From positions 1 to 35,010 of the IMG/VR virus record IMGVR_UViG_3300045988_019110: a stretch of DNA of 35,010 nt; one strand, written 5' to 3'. The stretch is from a virus (lineage: Duplodnaviria > Heunggongvirae > Uroviricota > Caudoviricetes). Under the pieces are notes generated by a model. It did no database searches. It was not told the origin of the DNA and saw nothing but the letters and a program-made list of their open reading frames with translations. Made by a program: the position numbers and the translations under genes. Shown here in pieces: positions 9,059 through 15,396 of the stretch (positions are counted from its first letter, which is position 1; each line of letters begins with the position of its first letter).

Positions 9059-9196
9059 CTACTCTTCTGATAACTTCTCCAGTACAAACGCCAGTTGCGC
9101 ATTAGCGGCGTCTCTTTGCTGCCGTAGTCGTAGAACCTCCTCTTCGAGTTCCTTGATACGTTTTTGCAATGCCGGAATCGGGGCTGTGATGTTCAT
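9059..9196 (-). CDS. small coiled-coil protein (45 aa), last gene of leftward operon
   Basis: ATG overlaps the SNF2 helicase stop (ATGA coupling); heptad-like MNITAPIPALQKRIKELEEEVLRLRQQRD; not in ORF track (<60 aa). Confidence 0.3.
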   Translation of the reverse strand: MNITAPIPALQKRIKELEEEVLRLRQQRDAANAQLAFVLEKLSEE

Positions 9197-10617
9197 TTCT
9201 TACTCCTACGTTTCATATACTCAAGGAGGATATCCTGCACCTGTTTTTTCTCGTCGGTGCGTGAAGTGACAACAGAATCTAACGTATCTTTAGCAATAAT
9301 CTTGTAGATAAAAACGGGGCGATTGTGCCCAGATTGCTTTTGTCGTGTTGGACCTATGCGCTCTATAACCTGCAAATAGTGCTCAAGGTTCCATCCCTGA
9401 CTGAAAAAAGCCATATGATGGCCGCCGTCTTGTAGCGATATACCATGCCCGGCTGACGCAGGATGCACGCATAATATTTCGATTTCACCGCGGTTCCACG
9501 CTTCCATCTGCTTATTACCCTTCGCACCTTTGGCAAACGCCTGGGCCTGCGGGAATCGCTTAAGGATGCGCTCCAGTTCGTGCTTAAACTGATAGGCCAC
9601 CAGTAACGGCGCTCCCTGTAACTCCTCGACAATGGACTCCAGAGCATCCAGTTTCGTGTCGTGTACTTTCTCCCAGTCTTTCGTTGCTTCTCCGTCTGGC
9701 CCTGACACATACACGGCACCAGATGCAATCTGCAAACACTTCGACGTCTTCGCTGCCGCGTTAGCCGCTTCAACTTCCCCGCTTTCCAGTTCTGCGAATA
9801 ATTTCTCCTCCATATCGATGTACGCCTGACGTGCTTTCTTAGGCAGGTCGATTTCAACCGGCACGATAATAGGCGCCTCGCAACCGAACCACTCGGCGGC
9901 GTCAATCGTGAGACTAACGTCCTTCATCTTCTGGTGGATTTCAGTATCCGCACCCGGGCGCGCATGATATTCACGCGCCATCGCCGACTTACCTTTCTGT
10001 ACCGAGTTAAACCAGCGGTCTGTGAATGCCGTGTACGATGAACCGAGGCGCTCGCCCGCGTCGATAAACCAGTTCTGACCCCACAGGTCTTTGAGGCCGT
10101 TGGGTGATGGTGTGCCTGTCAGGTTAATGAACCGCTTAACTTTACCAAATGCCACTTTGCTAAGCGCCTTTGCCCGCTTGCTTCCACCAGAACGGCTGCG
10201 GAATGACTTAAGCTTCGTGCTTTCATCGGCAACGATAACGGTAAAAGGCCAGTCATCTTTGCCGTAGTAGTCAATCAGCCATTCAATAACTTCGTAGTTT
10301 GTGCACACCACGTTAGCGTCAGACTCCAGCGCCGCGATGCGGCGCTTCTCTGAACCGGTCGCATCAACGACACGAAGACAAGGAAATTGCCATTTCTCTT
10401 GTTCTGCTGGCCATGTGCCAGACGCAACACGCAACGGGGCGAGAATTAACACGCGGTCGTCATCATTAAGTTGGCCGTTGCGGAACAGTCTGTTTAGAAC
10501 CCACATTGTCGCGGAACTTTTGCCCGCGCCCATCGAAGCCCAAATATTACAGCGCGGATGTCGCAGCATGAACGAAGTCATGAGCTTCTGGTACTCGCGC
10601 CTTTGAAACTTAGACAT
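9193..10617 (-). CDS. SNF2/DEAD-like superfamily 2 helicase
   Basis: Walker A-like ASMGAGKSS and DExx-box VIVADESTK; start re-set to ATG at 10617 (GAGG Shine-Dalgarno), since track N-terminal extension overlaps the upstream gene. Confidence 0.7.
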   Translation of the reverse strand: MSKFQRREYQKLMTSFMLRHPRCNIWASMGAGKSSATMWVLNRLFRNGQLNDDDRVLILAPLRVASGTWPAEQEKWQFPCLRVVDATGSEKRRIAALESDANVVCTNYEVIEWLIDYYGKDDWPFTVIVADESTKLKSFRSRSGGSKRAKALSKVAFGKVKRFINLTGTPSPNGLKDLWGQNWFIDAGERLGSSYTAFTDRWFNSVQKGKSAMAREYHARPGADTEIHQKMKDVSLTIDAAEWFGCEAPIIVPVEIDLPKKARQAYIDMEEKLFAELESGEVEAANAAAKTSKCLQIASGAVYVSGPDGEATKDWEKVHDTKLDALESIVEELQGAPLLVAYQFKHELERILKRFPQAQAFAKGAKGNKQMEAWNRGEIEILCVHPASAGHGISLQDGGHHMAFFSQGWNLEHYLQVIERIGPTRQKQSGHNRPVFIYKIIAKDTLDSVVTSRTDEKKQVQDILLEYMKRRSKK

Positions 10618-11293
10618 GATTGGCCTCGTAAACTGCTTTTGCGAAACCTCGTGGGGTGAGGCTGCGGATTGTCTTTGTTCTGGCGCTCTTTCCGCCGAGT
10701 TTAGCCCAACCAGGGTTATCCCCGCTATCAGCGGCAACTACAGCAACGTCGGGCATAACAAACCCATTGCCTACCCATAGGCACGTCTTTTTAACATAGG
10801 CATCCCGCGCTGGGATAACATCCGGAAACATTGGATGCGTGTCGTCTTCCGGTAGATAGCCGCCGTATTCGTGCGGGTTGAACACATAATCAGGCTTACG
10901 CCATAAAGATGAAAGAACACTAACCGGGTTCTCAATCATATAGGGTACGTTATACTTTTTAGCCAGACGTGCCGCCACTTTGCATGTAATCACGGCCTCT
11001 ACCTGAAACGTCGGGTTATTCTTGCGCTTAGCTTCGAAATGGCGCGACCCACTAACGGCTAAATCCGTGCATGGGGGGAACGAAAAAATAATATCTGGCG
11101 CAACCTCGAAGTCGAATTTATTATCAATCCACGCGTTTATATAGTGGATGTTCTCGTGTTCAACCCTCGCGCCCAATCGTGCGTAGTCTCCGTGGTCCGC
11201 GCCATCATAGTTGAAACAATAGCAAGTATGGCCTGCTTCTGCCCACGGCCGGGCCATAAGGCCCGAACCGTCAAACAATGACCAGACAATCAT
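10610..11293 (-). CDS. compact DNA cytosine-C5 methyltransferase-like protein
   Basis: 227 aa with motif I-like LFDGSGL, motif IV-like FPPCT (catalytic Pro-Cys), motif VI-like IENPV and GNGFV near C-terminus; ATG overlaps upstream stop. Confidence 0.5.
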   Translation of the reverse strand: MIVWSLFDGSGLMARPWAEAGHTCYCFNYDGADHGDYARLGARVEHENIHYINAWIDNKFDFEVAPDIIFSFPPCTDLAVSGSRHFEAKRKNNPTFQVEAVITCKVAARLAKKYNVPYMIENPVSVLSSLWRKPDYVFNPHEYGGYLPEDDTHPMFPDVIPARDAYVKKTCLWVGNGFVMPDVAVVAADSGDNPGWAKLGGKSARTKTIRSLTPRGFAKAVYEANHV

Positions 11294-12297: not shown

Positions 12298-15200
12298 TTA
12301 CTTGGCATAACGTTTTAACTCCTGACCTTCTGCTACAAGAGGAAACCCCTCGGCCCATTCCGGTAATTCACACATCAACCGCTCGAGTTCAGCGACATTG
12401 TATTCCGGCGCATCTGGAGTTTCGCACACCAGTTCATCGTGTACCGAGAGTACGATAGGATACCCACCACGCTCAACGTTAATCATCGCATAGGCAAGTA
12501 AATCACGGCACAGCGCCTGAACAATGTTTTCGCAGGCCTTGCCGCCGTGTGTGTACAGGGTAGTCCATTGGCGGGTTAACTGGTTTTCGCCTTGATACTT
12601 GATTCGCACATTCGTGTTTACCCGTCCGTCTTCATCTGTTTCCTTTGTCACACTAACCCCGATTCCCGGATAGGAAAGGATACGACCTGACGGCAACTCC
12701 ATACACAACCACCAACCCGGAACCTTCCTGCCGGATGAATCAAATTCTACAGTGCGCCATATGCGGATAGCCCTTTCCCCGTTCCTGCGCAAGTGCGCTC
12801 CCGCCCAAAATTCACGACCAGGGTTACGAACAGCGGCTAAAATTCCGTCTTTAAGGTCGCGCCAGAAAGCTACTGTTTCCGGGTGTGACTCGCGCCACAT
12901 ACGCTTGATCGCGTCGCATGTGCGCCACACTTTCTTGTCCAGAATATACGACGGTCGGTCGTCCTTTTCGCCCGGATGCGGCGGTCGCTTTGCTTCCTGG
13001 ATACGCGCCCACTCATAACCGCGTGCGGTAGCTGCCCATATGTGGTCAGGGAATGTACCGTCCATTGTTTTAGCCATCTCAATAAGGTCGAGGCCTAAGT
13101 TTTTGGCGAACGTAACGAACGCTCCGACACCCCCCTCATAGCCTAGGCCAAGCTCGCAGTTATGCGCCACAAGAAAGCCAGAGTCTGAGGCTATAAGAAA
13201 ACGGTTGCCGTCTTCCACATCAATCAGGTCGTACACCGGCTCGCAGTAGGTTAATTTCCCGCTCAAGTTCAGCAATGCGGGCAACGGCTGCATCGTACTT
13301 TCGTTGAAGCTCGGGTATTTGCCGTCTGTTTCGGCAGTTTTCAGAACGGCTGACAAACCGAATGTTTCCAGGTTCGTAGTTACCGTCTGTGTCGATTCTA
13401 TCCATTTCGAGGTTCGGGTCATCCCAGCCTTCCAGAGTTTGAACATATCTAAGAAAAGACCTTTTATCAGTCCTCCACTGGTCGAATACCGTGATGCCTC
13501 TTGCCCCGTAGTTTTTATAACCCTTATCCCTGGGGCTTGTTGTTCGCGTGATCGCCGCTGACAGCCGGTTGAGTAATCGCGTTCTGTGCGCATCATCCGG
13601 CATTGCGTCTTCGTAGCAGAAATACTGTTTACGATATTTTTTTGTTGCTTCAAGGGCGCAGCGGTTGCATTGAGTGGTTTTACCAGCTCTGACGTTGTCA
13701 TAATAGACCCGCCCCGGCATCTCTCCGCAATCACATTGGACGAGTAGTTGTCTTTGGCCTTGTCGTTTTGGTAACTCGCGCAGGATAACCAAGCGTCCAT
13801 ACCTCTCTCCAGGGCGAGGCCCATCATATATCTGTTTGAAGCGAGTTGCTTTGCCTGCTTCCAGGAATGCGCCAAGATTTTGTGGTCTTCGGTCATTAGC
13901 ACCCCGTCCACATTTATTACCGGTTTCCACCCCATAAGGTGCGCGCCTTTTGTATTCACCCATTTTTCACCGCTCCATACTTTATCTGTTGATGTAACCG
14001 CCATAATATCCTTAAATCCGCCATTGGTCAAAACTTGGGTATGGCGGTGAAGGCAGGCCTTACCAATCTGGCGTAAATCTTTACGTTCCTTCTTAATGTC
14101 GTCTGGGTCCATTCCGAACATCTTGCCCGCGGTTACACAATAAATGTCCAGTCCGGCACGGAACGTATCGAGCGCGGTTTCTTCACCTGCCAGCCACGCA
14201 AGTCCGCGGCCTTCAACGTTAGAGTAATCGGCAACAACAAACTTATGTCCTGCTTCCGGTATGATGCAGCTGCGAACCGTCGATGCCGTTAGCTTGGCTA
14301 CGTCAAATCGGCGGTGAGCACGACCCTTAAGTAACGCTGAAATGCCTTTATCCAGTTCATCATCATGATAGTACCCGCGGGCCAAGTTCTGCGGCTGGAA
14401 GCCTTTACCTGCCCATCGCAGAGTACGTTTTGCCCCACCGTACTGCAGGCAACCGCGACGGCGGTCGTCCGACGAGCGGCCTAACAGCAATGGGTTGTAT
14501 TTCGTGGACGCTGTTGACGCGGCACCGAGGCGCATTTCGATAATCGTACGGGCATCGTCCGGTAAATCATCGTCCGCCAACAGGTCATTCAGCGTCGACT
14601 TCTGTGCGTTGTGGATGCGGTGTGCGGGGGCAAGTTCACGCAGAATAGGTAGAAAGTCTTTACCAGTAAGTGAGCCGCCGTATTTGCGTTGGGCTTCTTC
14701 CTGTAACTGCGCTTTGTGTTTCTCCACAGCTTCAATCGCGGCTTCCGCCAGTGCAACGTCAACCTTAAACCCACGGTCATTGATTAACTGGTCCAGCTCC
14801 AGTACACGGTCCTCGAACTCTGAGTTACCCCACCGCGGCAGTTTATGGAAGACTTCACGCATCGCAGTGATGTCGCTCACGGCGTACTTGATGAACAGTG
14901 CCCACTCGTCCGGGTGTGTTTCGGCGGTGTAACGGCGGATTTTGTAGTTCTTCGGCGTCGGTTTAGAAAAACGCTTAATCAGCGCCTTGCCGCGTTTATC
15001 TTTCGCGTTGTCCGCGGATACACCCAGCACTTCACATAGCGCATCAAGCGAACCTGGTAGCGCGTGACGAAACGCCCAAATCATCGTATCAATGGTGTTG
15101 CTTACAGGAATGTCAAAGCCCCAGCAGTGCTTCATGATGAGCCTGTCGAACATTGAGCCGTTGTGCCACACCATCTTGATGCGGCTGTTTGGCTTAACCA

Positions 15201-15396
15201 GGCGGCGCAAGGCGCGATGCAAATCCCCCGGCATGTCGCTGCCGTCGGTGCAGTCCCATACCTGCACAGGCTCGTCGTCAAAAGCATAGGTACAGATAAG
15301 CACTTCTGTAGTCGGATGCTCGGCGTAAGCGTAGGAGCCGACTTTCTTTAAATTGGCTTCGGAGAATGTTTCAAAGTCTAAGAACAGGTAACTCAT
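12298..15396 (-). CDS. DNA polymerase, family A, with 3'-5' exonuclease domain; intein-containing
   Basis: 1032-aa ORF; N-terminal exo motif LFLDFETFS; motif A VVADYSNVEGRGLAW; motif B split as RQIGKA / CELGLGYEGG by a ~299-aa insertion with intein hallmarks. Confidence 0.85.
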   Translation of the reverse strand: MSYLFLDFETFSEANLKKVGSYAYAEHPTTEVLICTYAFDDEPVQVWDCTDGSDMPGDLHRALRRLVKPNSRIKMVWHNGSMFDRLIMKHCWGFDIPVSNTIDTMIWAFRHALPGSLDALCEVLGVSADNAKDKRGKALIKRFSKPTPKNYKIRRYTAETHPDEWALFIKYAVSDITAMREVFHKLPRWGNSEFEDRVLELDQLINDRGFKVDVALAEAAIEAVEKHKAQLQEEAQRKYGGSLTGKDFLPILRELAPAHRIHNAQKSTLNDLLADDDLPDDARTIIEMRLGAASTASTKYNPLLLGRSSDDRRRGCLQYGGAKRTLRWAGKGFQPQNLARGYYHDDELDKGISALLKGRAHRRFDVAKLTASTVRSCIIPEAGHKFVVADYSNVEGRGLAWLAGEETALDTFRAGLDIYCVTAGKMFGMDPDDIKKERKDLRQIGKACLHRHTQVLTNGGFKDIMAVTSTDKVWSGEKWVNTKGAHLMGWKPVINVDGVLMTEDHKILAHSWKQAKQLASNRYMMGLALERGMDAWLSCASYQNDKAKDNYSSNVIAERCRGGSIMTTSELVKPLNATAAPLKQQKNIVNSISATKTQCRMMRTERDYSTGCQRRSREQQAPGIRVIKTTGQEASRYSTSGGLIKGLFLDMFKLWKAGMTRTSKWIESTQTVTTNLETFGLSAVLKTAETDGKYPSFNESTMQPLPALLNLSGKLTYCEPVYDLIDVEDGNRFLIASDSGFLVAHNCELGLGYEGGVGAFVTFAKNLGLDLIEMAKTMDGTFPDHIWAATARGYEWARIQEAKRPPHPGEKDDRPSYILDKKVWRTCDAIKRMWRESHPETVAFWRDLKDGILAAVRNPGREFWAGAHLRRNGERAIRIWRTVEFDSSGRKVPGWWLCMELPSGRILSYPGIGVSVTKETDEDGRVNTNVRIKYQGENQLTRQWTTLYTHGGKACENIVQALCRDLLAYAMINVERGGYPIVLSVHDELVCETPDAPEYNVAELERLMCELPEWAEGFPLVAEGQELKRYAK
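13159..14055 (-). other. intein inserted in PolA motif B
   Basis: Pol-frame residues 448-746: N-terminal CLHRHTQVLT (block A), LMTEDHKIL (block B), C-terminal VYDLIDVEDGNRFLIA...FLVAHN followed by +1 Cys (blocks F/G). Confidence 0.65.
13220..13963 (-). CDS. HNH endonuclease-like ORF nested inside the intein in an alternate reading frame
   Basis: 247-aa ORF, different frame from the polymerase; ATG with GGAG 9 nt upstream; motifs GRLVIL...CDCGEM...CNRC and YKNYGARGITVFDQW...DRIDTDGNYEPGNIRFVSRSEN. Confidence 0.5.
   Translation of the reverse strand: MGEYKRRAPYGVETGNKCGRGANDRRPQNLGAFLEAGKATRFKQIYDGPRPGERYGRLVILRELPKRQGQRQLLVQCDCGEMPGRVYYDNVRAGKTTQCNRCALEATKKYRKQYFCYEDAMPDDAHRTRLLNRLSAAITRTTSPRDKGYKNYGARGITVFDQWRTDKRSFLRYVQTLEGWDDPNLEMDRIDTDGNYEPGNIRFVSRSENCRNRRQIPELQRKYDAAVARIAELEREINLLRAGVRPD

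What the first reader, a model, noticed from the sequence alone, without database searches (positions are those of the whole stretch)
13159..14055. Intein in DNA polymerase motif B with a complete HNH endonuclease ORF encoded in a different frame
The 1032-aa polymerase ORF is interrupted between RQIGKA and CELGLGYEGG (family A motif B) by ~299 residues that begin CLHRHTQVLT, contain LMTEDHKIL, and end VAHN before a Cys: the hallmarks of an intein. The intein interior, read in the polymerase frame, is featureless, while a different frame on the same strand (13220..13963) is open for 247 codons and encodes a convincing HNH-type endonuclease (CDCGEM...CNRC zinc motif, DRIDTDGNYEPGNIRFVSRSEN) with its own ATG and a GGAG Shine-Dalgarno. 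Two frames open over the same 744 nt is unlikely by chance. Either a free-standing homing endonuclease gene is nested out of frame inside a mini-intein, or the assembly carries compensating indels, or the precursor is made by recoding.
Basis: partly seen in the sequence, partly recalled or inferred. Interest (0 to 1): 0.85.

Follow-up and report, generated by a model that had tools for sequence, protein, structure and literature searches.

The report
Polymerase intein hiding an out-of-frame endonuclease gene
A self-splicing protein insert (intein) in a phage DNA polymerase carries, in a second reading frame of the same DNA, a separate gene for a homing-endonuclease-like protein; the arrangement is real, conserved in hundreds of phages, and belongs to a kind first described only in 2025.

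Summary
The 1032-aa family A polymerase ORF (12298..15396, minus strand) carries an 897-nt intein (13159..14055) in motif B. A 247-codon ORF (13220..13963) lies inside it, two bases out of frame.

It is not an assembly error. Thirteen distinct relatives and 69 distant metagenomic loci keep both frames open, while the third frame has 24-31 stops.

Only the two ends of the intein fold, and they form a Hint domain. The roughly 150 residues between them are predicted disordered and unconserved. That same DNA is conserved in the other frame (49% against 25% amino-acid identity), where it encodes a zinc-finger plus HNH-like protein typical of free-standing phage homing endonucleases.

Best reading: a mini-intein whose linker is overprinted on an independently translated homing-endonuclease gene. 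Its Shine-Dalgarno sequence and ATG are built from conserved intein codons. A sigma-70-like promoter is also embedded at intein nt 24-52, in 16 of 33 distant relatives.

The intein is 99% identical between phages whose flanking polymerase sequence is 75-87% identical, which indicates recent horizontal transfer.

The "HNH" label is only partly supported: no Pfam match, and the canonical catalytic His is an invariant Arg.

Out-of-frame endonuclease genes in inteins were reported in 2025 for actinophages. This is a new, much larger member of that kind.

The parts
12298..15396 (-). Family A DNA polymerase precursor ORF (1032 aa including the intein)
   Evidence: ORF. Pfam DNA_pol_A E 1.1e-16 on both sides of the insert, plus a weak 3'-5' exonuclease match; annotated as DNA polymerase in homologous Guernseyvirinae phages.
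14056..15396 (-). N-extein (447 aa), ending ...RQIGKA
   Evidence: The intein-less allele of phage RP180 reads RQIGKA|CELGLGYEGG without a break.
13159..14055 (-). Intein, 897 nt / 299 aa, class 1 features (Cys1, T55xxH58, H298-N299, +1 Cys)
   Evidence: invariant C1, T55, H58, H298, N299 in 36 inteins. (profile hits PDB inteins, E 4e-4). (Hint fold). (479 phage records hold the uninterrupted junction).
13756..14055 (-). N-terminal Hint lobe (intein residues 1-100), blocks A and B
   Evidence: pLDDT 96-98; variation concentrated at polymerase-frame third codon positions before the nested ORF starts (7, 2, 15).
13291..13746 (-). Polymerase-frame linker (intein residues 104-255): translated but predicted disordered and unconserved, kept only free of stop codons
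   Evidence: pLDDT 29-47, no secondary structure. (polymerase-frame second codon position is the most variable, 77 of 130 sites). (24.8% identity in this frame against 49.4% in the other). (stop-free by selection, not chance).
13159..13290 (-). C-terminal Hint lobe (intein residues 256-299), blocks F and G, ending VAHN
   Evidence: pLDDT 92-97 for residues 265-299. (last 61 nt vary at positions 1, 1, 12 of the polymerase frame)..
13220..13963 (-). Nested out-of-frame gene, 247 aa: homing-endonuclease-like protein (leader, CapR-type Zn finger, helical domain, HNH-like beta-beta-alpha motif, C-terminal helix)
   Evidence: (phrog_374 'HNH endonuclease' E 6.9e-47, plus four more endonuclease PHROGs). 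(305 homologues of about 240-250 aa). (variation at its third codon positions). (AlphaFold2 mean pLDDT 81).
13649..13816 (-). Zn-ribbon DNA-binding module of the nested protein (residues about 50-105; C77, C79, C99, C102)
   Evidence: four invariant Cys. (Pfam CapR homology domain in 8 of 37 homologues, above the curated cut-off in P0043 and P0084; the window protein itself does not score). PMC10448857 describes CapR Zn fingers as DNA-binding domains of phage homing endonucleases.
13328..13411 (-). HNH-like beta-beta-alpha motif (residues 185-212: LEMDRIDTDGNYEPGNIRFVSRSENCRN)
13961..13976 (-). Translation start of the nested gene: GGAG (13976..13973), 9-nt spacer, ATG (13963..13961), built from the intein codons for W-S-G-E-K-W
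   Evidence: in distant relatives a start codon at intein nt 92 or 98 and an upstream GGGAYGG come from the conserved WDGxEW codons.
14003..14031 (-). Sigma-70-like promoter TTGACC-17 nt-TATTAT inside the intein's block A coding region, about 40 nt upstream of the nested ATG (inferred promoter of the nested gene)
   Evidence: 10 of 12 matches. (16 of 33 distant inteins match at exactly this position; background 1.7e-4 per position). (synonymous bias: Leu TTG 19/26, Ala GCT 18/19, Ile ATA 14/29, against backgrounds of 0.14, 0.16 and 0.11).
12298..13158 (-). C-extein (286 aa plus stop), beginning CELGLGYEGGVGAF

Best explanation
The 897-nt insert is a composite mobile element made of two genes written on the same DNA.

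Gene 1, in the polymerase frame, is a class 1 mini-intein. Its N-terminal lobe of about 100 residues and C-terminal lobe of about 40 residues form the Hint splicing domain. About 150 disordered residues join them, and their only requirement is to contain no stop codon. After translation the intein is inferred to excise itself and join RQIGKA to CELGLGYEGG. That restores the O-helix (motif B) of the polymerase.

Gene 2, two bases out of phase, encodes a 247-aa protein of the free-standing phage homing-endonuclease type, with a CapR-like zinc finger and an HNH-like motif. It is inferred to be translated on its own from the GGAG-N9-ATG. It is possibly transcribed from its own sigma-70-like promoter. 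Both signals are overprinted on conserved intein codons. The protein is inferred to cut or nick intein-less polymerase alleles during co-infection, so that repair copies the whole insert (homing).

Shown here: both frames are open and under selection, the Hint fold, the disordered linker, intein-less alleles, horizontal transfer, and conserved start signals.

Inferred: splicing, separate translation, promoter activity, nuclease activity and its target.
For: Anatomy.

Both frames are kept open:
- 13 distinct close relatives with 221 variable sites.
- 69 of 69 further IMG/VR loci at 42-71% identity of the nested protein.
- All 34 tested host ORFs are PolA homologues interrupted at motif B.
- Chance is excluded: P 0.004 to 1e-4 in the window; no stop-free trial in 5000 for two distant members under either test, and 0 to 0.006 for two others.

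Selection switches frame along the element (variable sites by codon position):
- Polymerase frame in the first 92 nt: 7, 2, 15.
- Polymerase frame in the last 61 nt: 1, 1, 12.
- Nested frame in nt 260-740: 36, 17, 77.
- The same middle DNA gives 49.4% identity in the nested frame and 24.8% in the polymerase frame.

Intein: invariant C1, T55, H58, H298, N299 and a +1 Cys. The profile hits PI-MtuI and Neq Pol inteins. The AlphaFold2 and Foldseek results support a Hint fold.

Precise insertion: intein-less alleles are common.

Nested protein: PHROG endonuclease families, free-standing relatives, CapR zinc finger, and a confident fold.

Mobility: the intein is 99.1% identical between the window and f18SE while the exteins are 75-87% identical. 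It is 83.5% against 62-72% for the Dhillonvirus SO-1. Among phage records, 166 carry it while 479 hold the uninterrupted junction.

Independent expression:
- A stop lies just upstream of the ATG, and the SD and ATG are conserved.
- The second phase class has AAGGAG-N6-ATG.
- A promoter-like element is conserved beyond what the amino acids require.

No intron.
Against: There is no direct evidence that the 247-aa protein is made, that the intein splices, or that the promoter fires.

The nuclease assignment is weak:
- Pfam and NCBIfam give no HNH match for the window protein or for free-standing relatives.
- Foldseek against PDB finds nothing.
- The position of the canonical catalytic His is an invariant Arg.

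Pfam also fails to call Hint on the window intein.

Promoter-like matches in the 3.6-kb region around the gene are not more numerous than in shuffles. The statistics treat related sequences as independent.

Homing could in principle be driven by an endonuclease encoded elsewhere.
Confidence: 0.85

Rival explanations
1. Assembly or sequencing artefact: one or two compensating indels have thrown an ordinary in-frame HNH intein out of frame in this assembly.
For: One old GenBank record (SS3e) does differ by two gaps, and its polymerase is annotated in three pieces.
Against: Thirteen distinct, independently sequenced relatives are ungapped over 897 nt and keep the same two frames. So do 69 distant IMG/VR loci and a Logan contig. 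No single frame ever contains both the Hint ends and the HNH-like core.
Confidence: 0.01
2. Recoding: ribosomes shift from the polymerase frame into the endonuclease frame and back (or only in). The endonuclease domain would then be made as part of the intein precursor, as in canonical inteins.
For: The nested frame is the -1 frame relative to the polymerase, the commonest direction of programmed frameshifting in phages. No expression data exclude it.
Against: - A stop codon closes the nested frame just upstream of the ATG in the window and within the first 53-92 nt of the intein in relatives.
- No X XXY YYZ heptamer is present or conserved around it.
- Two shifts would be needed to regain the C-terminal Hint lobe.
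- The polymerase frame would not need to stay open through the middle, yet it does.
- A sister lineage uses the other alternative frame with a canonical AAGGAG-N6-ATG.
Confidence: 0.03
3. The nested ORF is a decaying or domesticated remnant, a DNA-binding protein without nuclease activity. The intein now persists by vertical descent, or is mobilised by an endonuclease encoded elsewhere (collaborative homing).
For: - The catalytic His of HNH is replaced by Arg throughout the family.
- There is no curated HNH match.
- CapR itself is a domesticated endonuclease DNA-binding domain used as a repressor (PMC8096241 and PMC10448857).
- One relative (L017) carries a nonsense codon in the nested frame with the intein frame intact.
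Against: - The ORF is intact in 82 of 83 loci examined (13 close relatives and 69 further IMG/VR loci; L017 is the one exception) and evolves under purifying selection.
- The intein moved recently between diverged polymerase alleles with sharp boundaries.
- No other endonuclease gene travels with the 897-nt unit.
- The Arg is also present in free-standing relatives with a homing-endonuclease-like distribution, so it is a family trait rather than decay.
Confidence: 0.1
4. The insert is a group I intron carrying an HNH gene, as the Sodalis phage SO-1 GenBank record states.
For: SO-1 gp38 and gp39 are annotated 'type I self-splicing intron'. Phage polymerase genes do host such introns (PMC3428280).
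Against: - No Rfam intron match at E <= 1.
- The polymerase frame is kept open through the whole insert in every relative, which an intron does not need.
- The ends encode a Hint domain with Cys1, HN and a +1 Cys.
Confidence: 0.01

Closest known systems
Non-canonical actinobacteriophage inteins with an endonuclease VII-like homing endonuclease in 'frame 3' of the intein (Gosselin, Arsenault, Gogarten, bioRxiv 10.1101/2025.01.02.630785)
   Same: - A same-strand, out-of-frame endonuclease ORF lies between the splicing blocks.
- The in-frame middle is unstructured.
- The endonuclease is related to free-standing phage endonucleases.
- There are signs of continuing transfer.
- The proposed origin is invasion of an intein by a free-standing endonuclease gene.
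   Different: - Different endonuclease family: a CapR zinc finger plus an HNH-like core with Arg, although phrog_1035 'endonuclease VII' matches weakly (E 2e-5).
- Different extein: family A polymerase motif B.
- Different hosts: enterobacterial Guernseyvirinae and Dhillonvirus phages, and many uncultured phages.
- Far larger: 166 GenBank phages and 301 IMG/VR loci.
- Both alternative frames are used in sister lineages.
- Start signals and a promoter-like element are embedded in Hint codons. That paper left expression open.
ShiLan domain: out-of-frame HNH endonuclease insertion in a mycobacteriophage DNA methylase (Arsenault et al. 2025, PMC11855218)
   Same: - A hidden endonuclease gene in an alternate frame of an insertion that stays open in the host gene's frame.
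- The stop codon sits at the very end of the insertion (TAAC there). In several relatives here the stop is caT AAc of the terminal His-Asn.
   Different: ShiLan has no splicing domains and is thought to remain in the protein. Here the insertion is flanked by a complete Hint domain. ShiLan has no detectable ribosome-binding site, and leaderless translation was proposed for it. Here an SD and ATG are conserved.
Fractured genes: split inteins with a free-standing endonuclease gene between the halves (Dassa et al. 2009, PMC2677866)
   Same: A free-standing-type endonuclease gene sits between the N- and C-terminal intein parts inside an essential replication gene. Under their model this locus would be the contiguous intermediate.
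   Different: In fractured genes the host frame is broken into two genes and splicing is in trans. Here the host frame is continuous, and selection keeps it so.
SETP3-type Salmonella phage DNA polymerase intein as annotated in GenBank ('intein-containing DNA polymerase precursor'; vB_SenS-Ent1 mat_peptide 'intein, encoding splicing domains')
   Same: It is the same element, at 92-99% nucleotide identity.
   Different: Those records annotate it as a splicing-only intein and do not annotate the nested ORF. Only SO-1 annotates the nested ORF (where it is read as an intron ORF); SS3e has a protein named HNH endonuclease, in a record whose polymerase is split into three ORFs by two gaps.
Canonical inteins with an in-frame HNH or LAGLIDADG endonuclease domain, and inteins with an antisense LAGLIDADG gene (cited in the 2025 preprint)
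   Same: A Hint domain split by endonuclease-coding DNA; homing into a conserved site of a replication protein.
   Different: Here the endonuclease is neither part of the intein polypeptide nor on the opposite strand. It shares the strand and the nucleotides but not the frame.

Membership tests
Class 1 intein (Hint domain) | Cys/Ser at position 1, block B TxxH, penultimate His and terminal Asn, Cys/Ser/Thr at +1 | tested here: met
   C1, T55, H58, H298 and N299 are invariant in 36 aligned inteins, and a +1 Cys is present.
Class 1 intein (Hint domain) | Hint fold | tested here: met
   AlphaFold2 gives pLDDT 96-98 (residues 1-100) and 92-97 (265-299). The top 34 Foldseek PDB hits are all inteins or Hint domains, probability about 1.0, best E 5e-3, covering only the N-terminal lobe. 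The profile hits PI-MtuI at E 4e-4.
Class 1 intein (Hint domain) | Recognition by curated intein models (Pfam Intein_splicing/Hint, NCBIfam intein N- and C-terminal models) | tested here: not met
   No match for the window intein. Only 1-2 of 36 relatives score weakly, E 0.02-0.06. This is a failure of model sensitivity, not of a defining biochemical feature.
Class 1 intein (Hint domain) | Precise in-frame insertion at a conserved site, with intein-less alleles | tested here: met
   479 phage records hold the uninterrupted junction. RP180 reads RQIGKA|CELGLGYEGG.
Class 1 intein (Hint domain) | Protein splicing demonstrated | not testable with these tools
   Needs expression of the precursor.
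HNH (beta-beta-alpha-Me) endonuclease | Beta-beta-alpha metal finger | tested here: inconclusive
HNH (beta-beta-alpha-Me) endonuclease | Catalytic His at the end of strand 1 (first H of HNH) | tested here: not met
   The position is an invariant Arg (D188-R189) in 37 homologues and in the two free-standing relatives read through this motif, which have ERID and NRIN.
HNH (beta-beta-alpha-Me) endonuclease | Conserved Asn residues of the motif | tested here: met
   N200, N209 and N212 are invariant.
HNH (beta-beta-alpha-Me) endonuclease | Match to curated HNH models | tested here: not met
   No Pfam or NCBIfam HNH match for the window protein, 36 homologues or free-standing relatives. Only PHROG families named 'HNH endonuclease' match.
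HNH (beta-beta-alpha-Me) endonuclease | Nuclease activity | not testable with these tools
   Inferred only from the mobility pattern.
CapR-type Zn-finger DNA-binding domain of phage homing endonucleases (PF21817) | Four-Cys motif and a match to the Pfam model | tested here: inconclusive
   C77, C79, C99 and C102 are invariant. Eight of 37 homologues match, two above the curated cut-off. The window protein itself does not score.
Intein with same-strand out-of-frame homing endonuclease gene (Gosselin et al. 2025) | Endonuclease-like ORF in an alternate frame between the splicing blocks, with the host frame open and unstructured there | tested here: met
Intein with same-strand out-of-frame homing endonuclease gene (Gosselin et al. 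2025) | Nested ORF related to free-standing phage endonuclease genes | tested here: met
   L019 and L022 hold free-standing relatives with no open alternate frame. The family has 111,989 cluster representatives at E <= 1e-3.
Intein with same-strand out-of-frame homing endonuclease gene (Gosselin et al. 2025) | Evidence of continued horizontal transfer | tested here: met
   Intein 99.1% identical against exteins 75-87%. Sporadic distribution across three genera.
Split intein / fractured gene | Host gene broken into two ORFs by the endonuclease gene | tested here: not met
   The host frame is continuous in all 83 loci examined.
Group I intron with endonuclease ORF | Intron RNA structure; no need for an open host frame | tested here: not met
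   No Rfam match at E <= 1. The host frame is conserved open.
Programmed ribosomal frameshift | Slippery heptamer where the frames overlap, with no independent start | tested here: not met
   No heptamer. A stop, then an SD and ATG, sit at the entry to the nested frame.

The most novel reading that the evidence does not exclude
This would be an ancient and very successful composite mobile element. A free-standing-type endonuclease gene has been overprinted on the linker of a mini-intein. All its expression signals (sigma-70 promoter, Shine-Dalgarno, start codon, and in some members the stop codon) are written into conserved Hint-domain codons. The endonuclease would then be transcribed and translated independently of the polymerase it parasitises.

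Its nuclease would be a previously uncharacterised Arg-for-His variant of the HNH finger. That variant defines a family of more than 100,000 sequence clusters with no curated model.
Probability: 0.4. Interest if true: 0.75.

Novelty: new member of a known kind. Interest (0 to 1): 0.6.

Why it matters
Inteins are textbook cases in which the splicing domain and the homing endonuclease form one polypeptide. Architectures that uncouple the two were reported only in 2025, in a few dozen actinophage inteins, with expression left unexplained.

This locus shows the same principle in Salmonella, E. coli, Shigella and Sodalis phages that are easy to grow and engineer, and in hundreds of uncultured phages. 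It also offers concrete, testable expression signals.

- It gives a tractable system to test whether a nested endonuclease drives intein homing.
- It can show how two proteins share 744 nt under opposing constraints.
- It bears on whether inteins acquired their endonucleases by invasion of free-standing genes (the "splicing first" model, with fractured genes as the broken outcome).

There are practical consequences too. Genome annotation pipelines miss this gene in nearly all of the 166 GenBank records. The disordered roughly 150-residue linker shows that this mini-intein tolerates a large arbitrary insert, which is useful for intein engineering.

Tried and rejected
- Pfam and NCBIfam on both frames of the window insert gave nothing meaningful. 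Pfam on 36 relatives' inteins gave only marginal Hint or Intein_splicing scores.
- phmmer and a profile search of the nested protein against PDB sequences gave only zinc-ribbon look-alikes such as COX5B and RSC8.
- Pfam and NCBIfam on free-standing relatives and on long multi-repeat relatives, to find a transitive link to a curated nuclease family, found none.
- Rfam search for an intron found none.
- Literature searches for SETP3, Jerseyvirus or SO-1 plus intein or HNH found no description of the nested gene.
- The polymerase-frame match to phrog_93 'endonuclease' (E 5e-197) was set aside as probably not independent evidence. I judged that family likely to be built from these same intein-containing polymerases, but did not check its membership.
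- I considered that the promoter-like hexamers merely reflect the conserved amino acids VLT and AIV. I rejected this because the synonymous codon choices are strongly biased, and because the sister lineage with a different start site keeps the amino acids but not the hexamers.
Full report
**What is there**

The window comes from a Guernseyvirinae (Kagunavirus/Jerseyvirus-like) siphophage. The best nucleotide matches of its polymerase gene are Escherichia and Salmonella phages at 86-94% identity.

On the minus strand a 1032-codon ORF (12298..15396) encodes a family A DNA polymerase. Pfam DNA_pol_A matches on both sides of an insert. The insert reads RQIGKA|CLHRHTQVLT...MTEDH...FLVAHN|CELGLGYEGG and occupies 13159..14055 (897 nt, 299 codons). 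It splits motif B (RxxxKxxx[F/L]GxxY).

A 247-codon ORF lies inside it at 13220..13963, on the same strand and two bases out of phase. GGAG sits 9 nt upstream of its ATG.

**Is the double open frame real, and more than chance?**

The 897-nt insert occurs in 166 GenBank phage records. I compared thirteen distinct copies at 83-99% identity.

- They are ungapped and differ at 221 sites.
- All keep both frames open.
- The third frame has 24-31 stops.

I resampled synonymous codons of the 247-aa ORF using the phage's own codon usage. The polymerase frame stayed stop-free in 0.4% of trials. Permuting the ORF's own codons did so in 0.01%. An assembly artefact is therefore excluded.

**The arrangement is ancient and widespread**

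A pattern scan of IMG/VR with an alignment of homologues found 301 loci that encode a relative. The best 80 were returned.

- I checked the 69 loci that are not copies of the close relatives. They are 42-71% identical in the nested protein.
- In every one, the homologue lies inside a 600-1280-codon ORF in the +1-shifted frame.
- In the 34 where I delimited the intein, the host ORF is a PolA homologue (23-68% identity, E <= 4.5e-20). It is interrupted in motif B by a 277-299-codon insert beginning with Cys and ending HN|C.

At least four nearby insertion points are used: GKx|C, GKxA|C, GKVxELA|C and GKTTILG|C.

More distant relatives (L018, L020, L021) sit in homologous PolA inteins, but in the other alternative frame. 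Others (L019, L022) are free-standing genes whose alternate frames are full of stops.

For two distant nested members, no trial in 5000 gave a stop-free host frame under either test. For two others the probability was 0 to 0.006, depending on the test.

**Which frame is under selection, and where?**

Counts of variable sites by codon position (first, second, third) among the close relatives:

| Segment of the intein | Polymerase frame | Nested frame |
|---|---|---|
| First 92 nt, before the nested ORF | 7, 2, 15 | not applicable |
| nt 260-740 | 17, 77, 36 | 36, 17, 77 |
| Last 61 nt | 1, 1, 12 | not applicable |

In the middle, the second position of the polymerase codons is the most variable. 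The polymerase-frame amino acids there are therefore not conserved.

Across 34 distant loci the same middle DNA is 49.4% identical as protein in the nested frame, and 24.8% in the polymerase frame. The polymerase frame is constrained there only to avoid stops.

**The intein**

In an alignment of 36 inteins, the first ~95 and last ~38 residues are conserved. C1, T55, H58 (block B TxxH), H298 and N299 are invariant. The middle is not conserved.

- Curated models miss the window intein.
- A profile of the alignment hits solved inteins (PI-MtuI E 4e-4, Neq Pol, DnaX).
- AlphaFold2 gives pLDDT 96-98 for residues 1-100 and 92-97 for 265-299. Residues 104-255 score about 30 and have no secondary structure.
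- The 34 best Foldseek PDB hits are all inteins or Hint domains.

Intein-less alleles are common. 479 phage records hold the uninterrupted junction. Phage RP180 reads RQIGKA|CELGLGYEGG, exactly the predicted spliced product. No intron is detectable. This corrects the "type I self-splicing intron" note in the Sodalis phage SO-1 record, which does annotate the nested ORF as gp39.

**The nested protein**

It matches PHROG families named HNH endonuclease (phrog_374 E 6.9e-47; also 3377 and 2081), restriction endonuclease (8790) and endonuclease VII (1035). It has 305 word-index homologues of about 240-250 aa.

A full profile search finds 111,989 cluster representatives at E <= 1e-3, and 394 at E <= 1e-30.

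AlphaFold2 gives mean pLDDT 81:

- a disordered leader (residues 1-45, encoded over the N-terminal Hint lobe);
- a beta domain with invariant C77, C79, C99 and C102;
- a helical domain;
- a strand-strand-helix at 185-211;
- a long C-terminal helix.

The four-Cys module is the CapR-type zinc finger. Eight of 37 homologues match PF21817. Barth et al. (PMC10448857) describe this domain as the DNA-binding domain of phage homing endonucleases.

The strand-strand-helix carries DRIDxxGxYEPGNxRFxxxxxNxxN. That follows the template of the HNH finger, but the catalytic His position is an invariant Arg. The same holds in free-standing relatives.

I therefore call it homing-endonuclease-like and HNH-like. 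It is not a demonstrated HNH enzyme.

**Mobility**

Between this phage and Salmonella phage f18SE the intein is 99.1% identical. The flanking polymerase sequence is 75-87% identical, and the transitions are sharp. Against the Dhillonvirus SO-1 the figures are 83.5% and 62-72%.

Together with the patchy distribution (166 records with the intein, 479 with the uninterrupted junction), this is the signature of recent horizontal transfer of the 897-nt unit.

Many metagenomic homologues sit on contigs of about 850-1300 bp. One that I read holds just the intein plus 27 and 63 nt of extein. Both frames are open in it.

**How the nested gene is expressed (inference)**

In the window a stop closes the nested frame immediately upstream of the ATG. 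The SD and ATG are made from the intein codons for W-S-G-E-K-W.

In distant relatives the conserved intein motif WDGxEW (tgGGAyGGnnnnGArTGG) supplies a purine-rich SD-like stretch. It also supplies an ATG or GTG at intein nt 92, or an ATG at nt 98.

In the other-phase lineage the start is AAGGAG-N6-ATG, made from (K/Q)G(V/E)(K/R)DV codons.

The consensus scan finds TTGACC-17-TATTAT at 14031..14003, which is intein nt 24-52, about 40 nt upstream of the ATG.

- On its own this is unremarkable: 2 sites were found where 2.7 are expected.
- However, 16 of 33 distant inteins have a match by the same criteria at exactly that position. The background elsewhere in the same ORFs is 1.7e-4 per position.
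- The codons involved are biased synonymously: Leu TTG 19/26 (background 0.14), Ala GCT 18/19 (0.16) and Ile ATA 14/29 (0.11).
- Neighbouring third codon positions are saturated.
- This region lies upstream of the nested ORF, so the constraint is not protein-coding. The other-phase lineage keeps the amino acids but not the hexamers.

I read this as an embedded promoter for the nested gene, at moderate confidence. The tests assume that related sequences are independent.

**Comparison with what is known**

Same-strand out-of-frame endonuclease genes inside inteins were first reported by Gosselin, Arsenault and Gogarten (bioRxiv 10.1101/2025.01.02.630785). That was an endonuclease VII-like gene in "frame 3" of actinophage inteins, which they state had not been reported before.

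The same group described an out-of-frame HNH insertion without splicing domains in a methylase. They discussed the open question of how such genes are translated (PMC11855218).

Dassa et al. (PMC2677866) described the broken version: split inteins with a free-standing endonuclease gene between the halves.

I found no description of the nested gene in the SETP3/Jersey-type polymerase intein. Most GenBank records annotate only "intein-containing DNA polymerase precursor".

This locus is therefore a new and much larger member of a recently recognised kind. It differs in endonuclease family, extein and hosts. It uses two frame phases and has identifiable expression signals.

**Verdict**

Assembly error is refuted, and recoding is unsupported.

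Confidence is 0.85 in the composite element, meaning a mini-intein plus a separately translated nested endonuclease-like gene. It is lower for nuclease chemistry (about 0.6) and for promoter function (about 0.5).

Noticed in passing
window 14003..14031 (-); intein nt 24-52 in L036-L102: A sigma-70-like promoter (TTGACN-17-TATAGT/TATTAT) is embedded in the intein's block A coding region. It is conserved by synonymous codon choice in about half of the distant relatives.
   Followed up: yes
L018 2242-3225; L020 2021-2950; L021: A sister lineage of PolA motif-B inteins carries a related nested gene in the other alternative frame. It starts at intein nt 106-133 behind AAGGAG-N6-ATG. In L020 the nested ORF runs 22 nt past the intein end into the C-extein.
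   Followed up: partly
L017 2423-3200: One relative has a single in-frame stop in the nested gene (…HKQW*EDRAAFLRYVQT…). The sequence downstream is otherwise intact, and the intein/polymerase frame is still open. This may be early endonuclease decay, or a sequencing error.
   Followed up: partly
L034-L102 host ORFs: The inteins occupy at least four different insertion points within a few codons of motif B: GKx|C, GKxA|C, GKVxELA|C and GKTTILG|C. The +1 Cys is in a different register in each.
   Followed up: no
L036-L080: In several relatives the nested gene's stop codon is the TAA formed by caT AAc of the intein's terminal His-Asn. The nested ORF then spans the intein from nt 92 to its last base but one. 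The ShiLan insertion also ends in TAAC.
   Followed up: no
P0001-P0120; L105: Most metagenomic homologues sit on contigs of about 850-1300 bp. L105 is the intein plus 27 and 63 nt of extein. This suggests that assemblies break at the intein edges, perhaps because intein-plus and intein-less alleles, or several extein backgrounds, coexist in a sample.
   Followed up: partly
P0121-P0266: The core of the nested protein (RCxNPxxxxYxxYGGRGIxV...W and [D/E]RIDxxGxYxPxN) defines a very large family: 111,989 cluster representatives at E <= 1e-3. No Pfam or NCBIfam model matched any member scanned. Many members carry 2-6 repeated modules.
   Followed up: partly
P0172: A 451-aa protein joins an SNF2-related helicase fragment (residues 107-255) directly to this endonuclease-like domain (255-446). 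This may be another replication gene interrupted by a member of the family.
   Followed up: no
AY730274.2 Salmonella phage SS3e (H79, L015): This older record differs from all others by two gaps across the intein (899 against 897 nt). Its polymerase is annotated as three hypothetical proteins, probably because of sequencing errors.
   Followed up: no
L003 4852-5897 (vB_SenS-Ent1) against window 9193..10737 (-): In Ent1 the neighbouring SNF2 helicase carries a LAGLIDADG intein. The window's helicase ORF (514 aa) shows only SNF2 and Helicase_C matches, so this phage appears to lack that second intein.
   Followed up: partly
window 13220..13963 (-), residue 141: The Cys that is nearly invariant in the family's RC motif (C141) is Thr in the window protein and in the two closest homologues aligned (ITRTTSP).
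   Followed up: no
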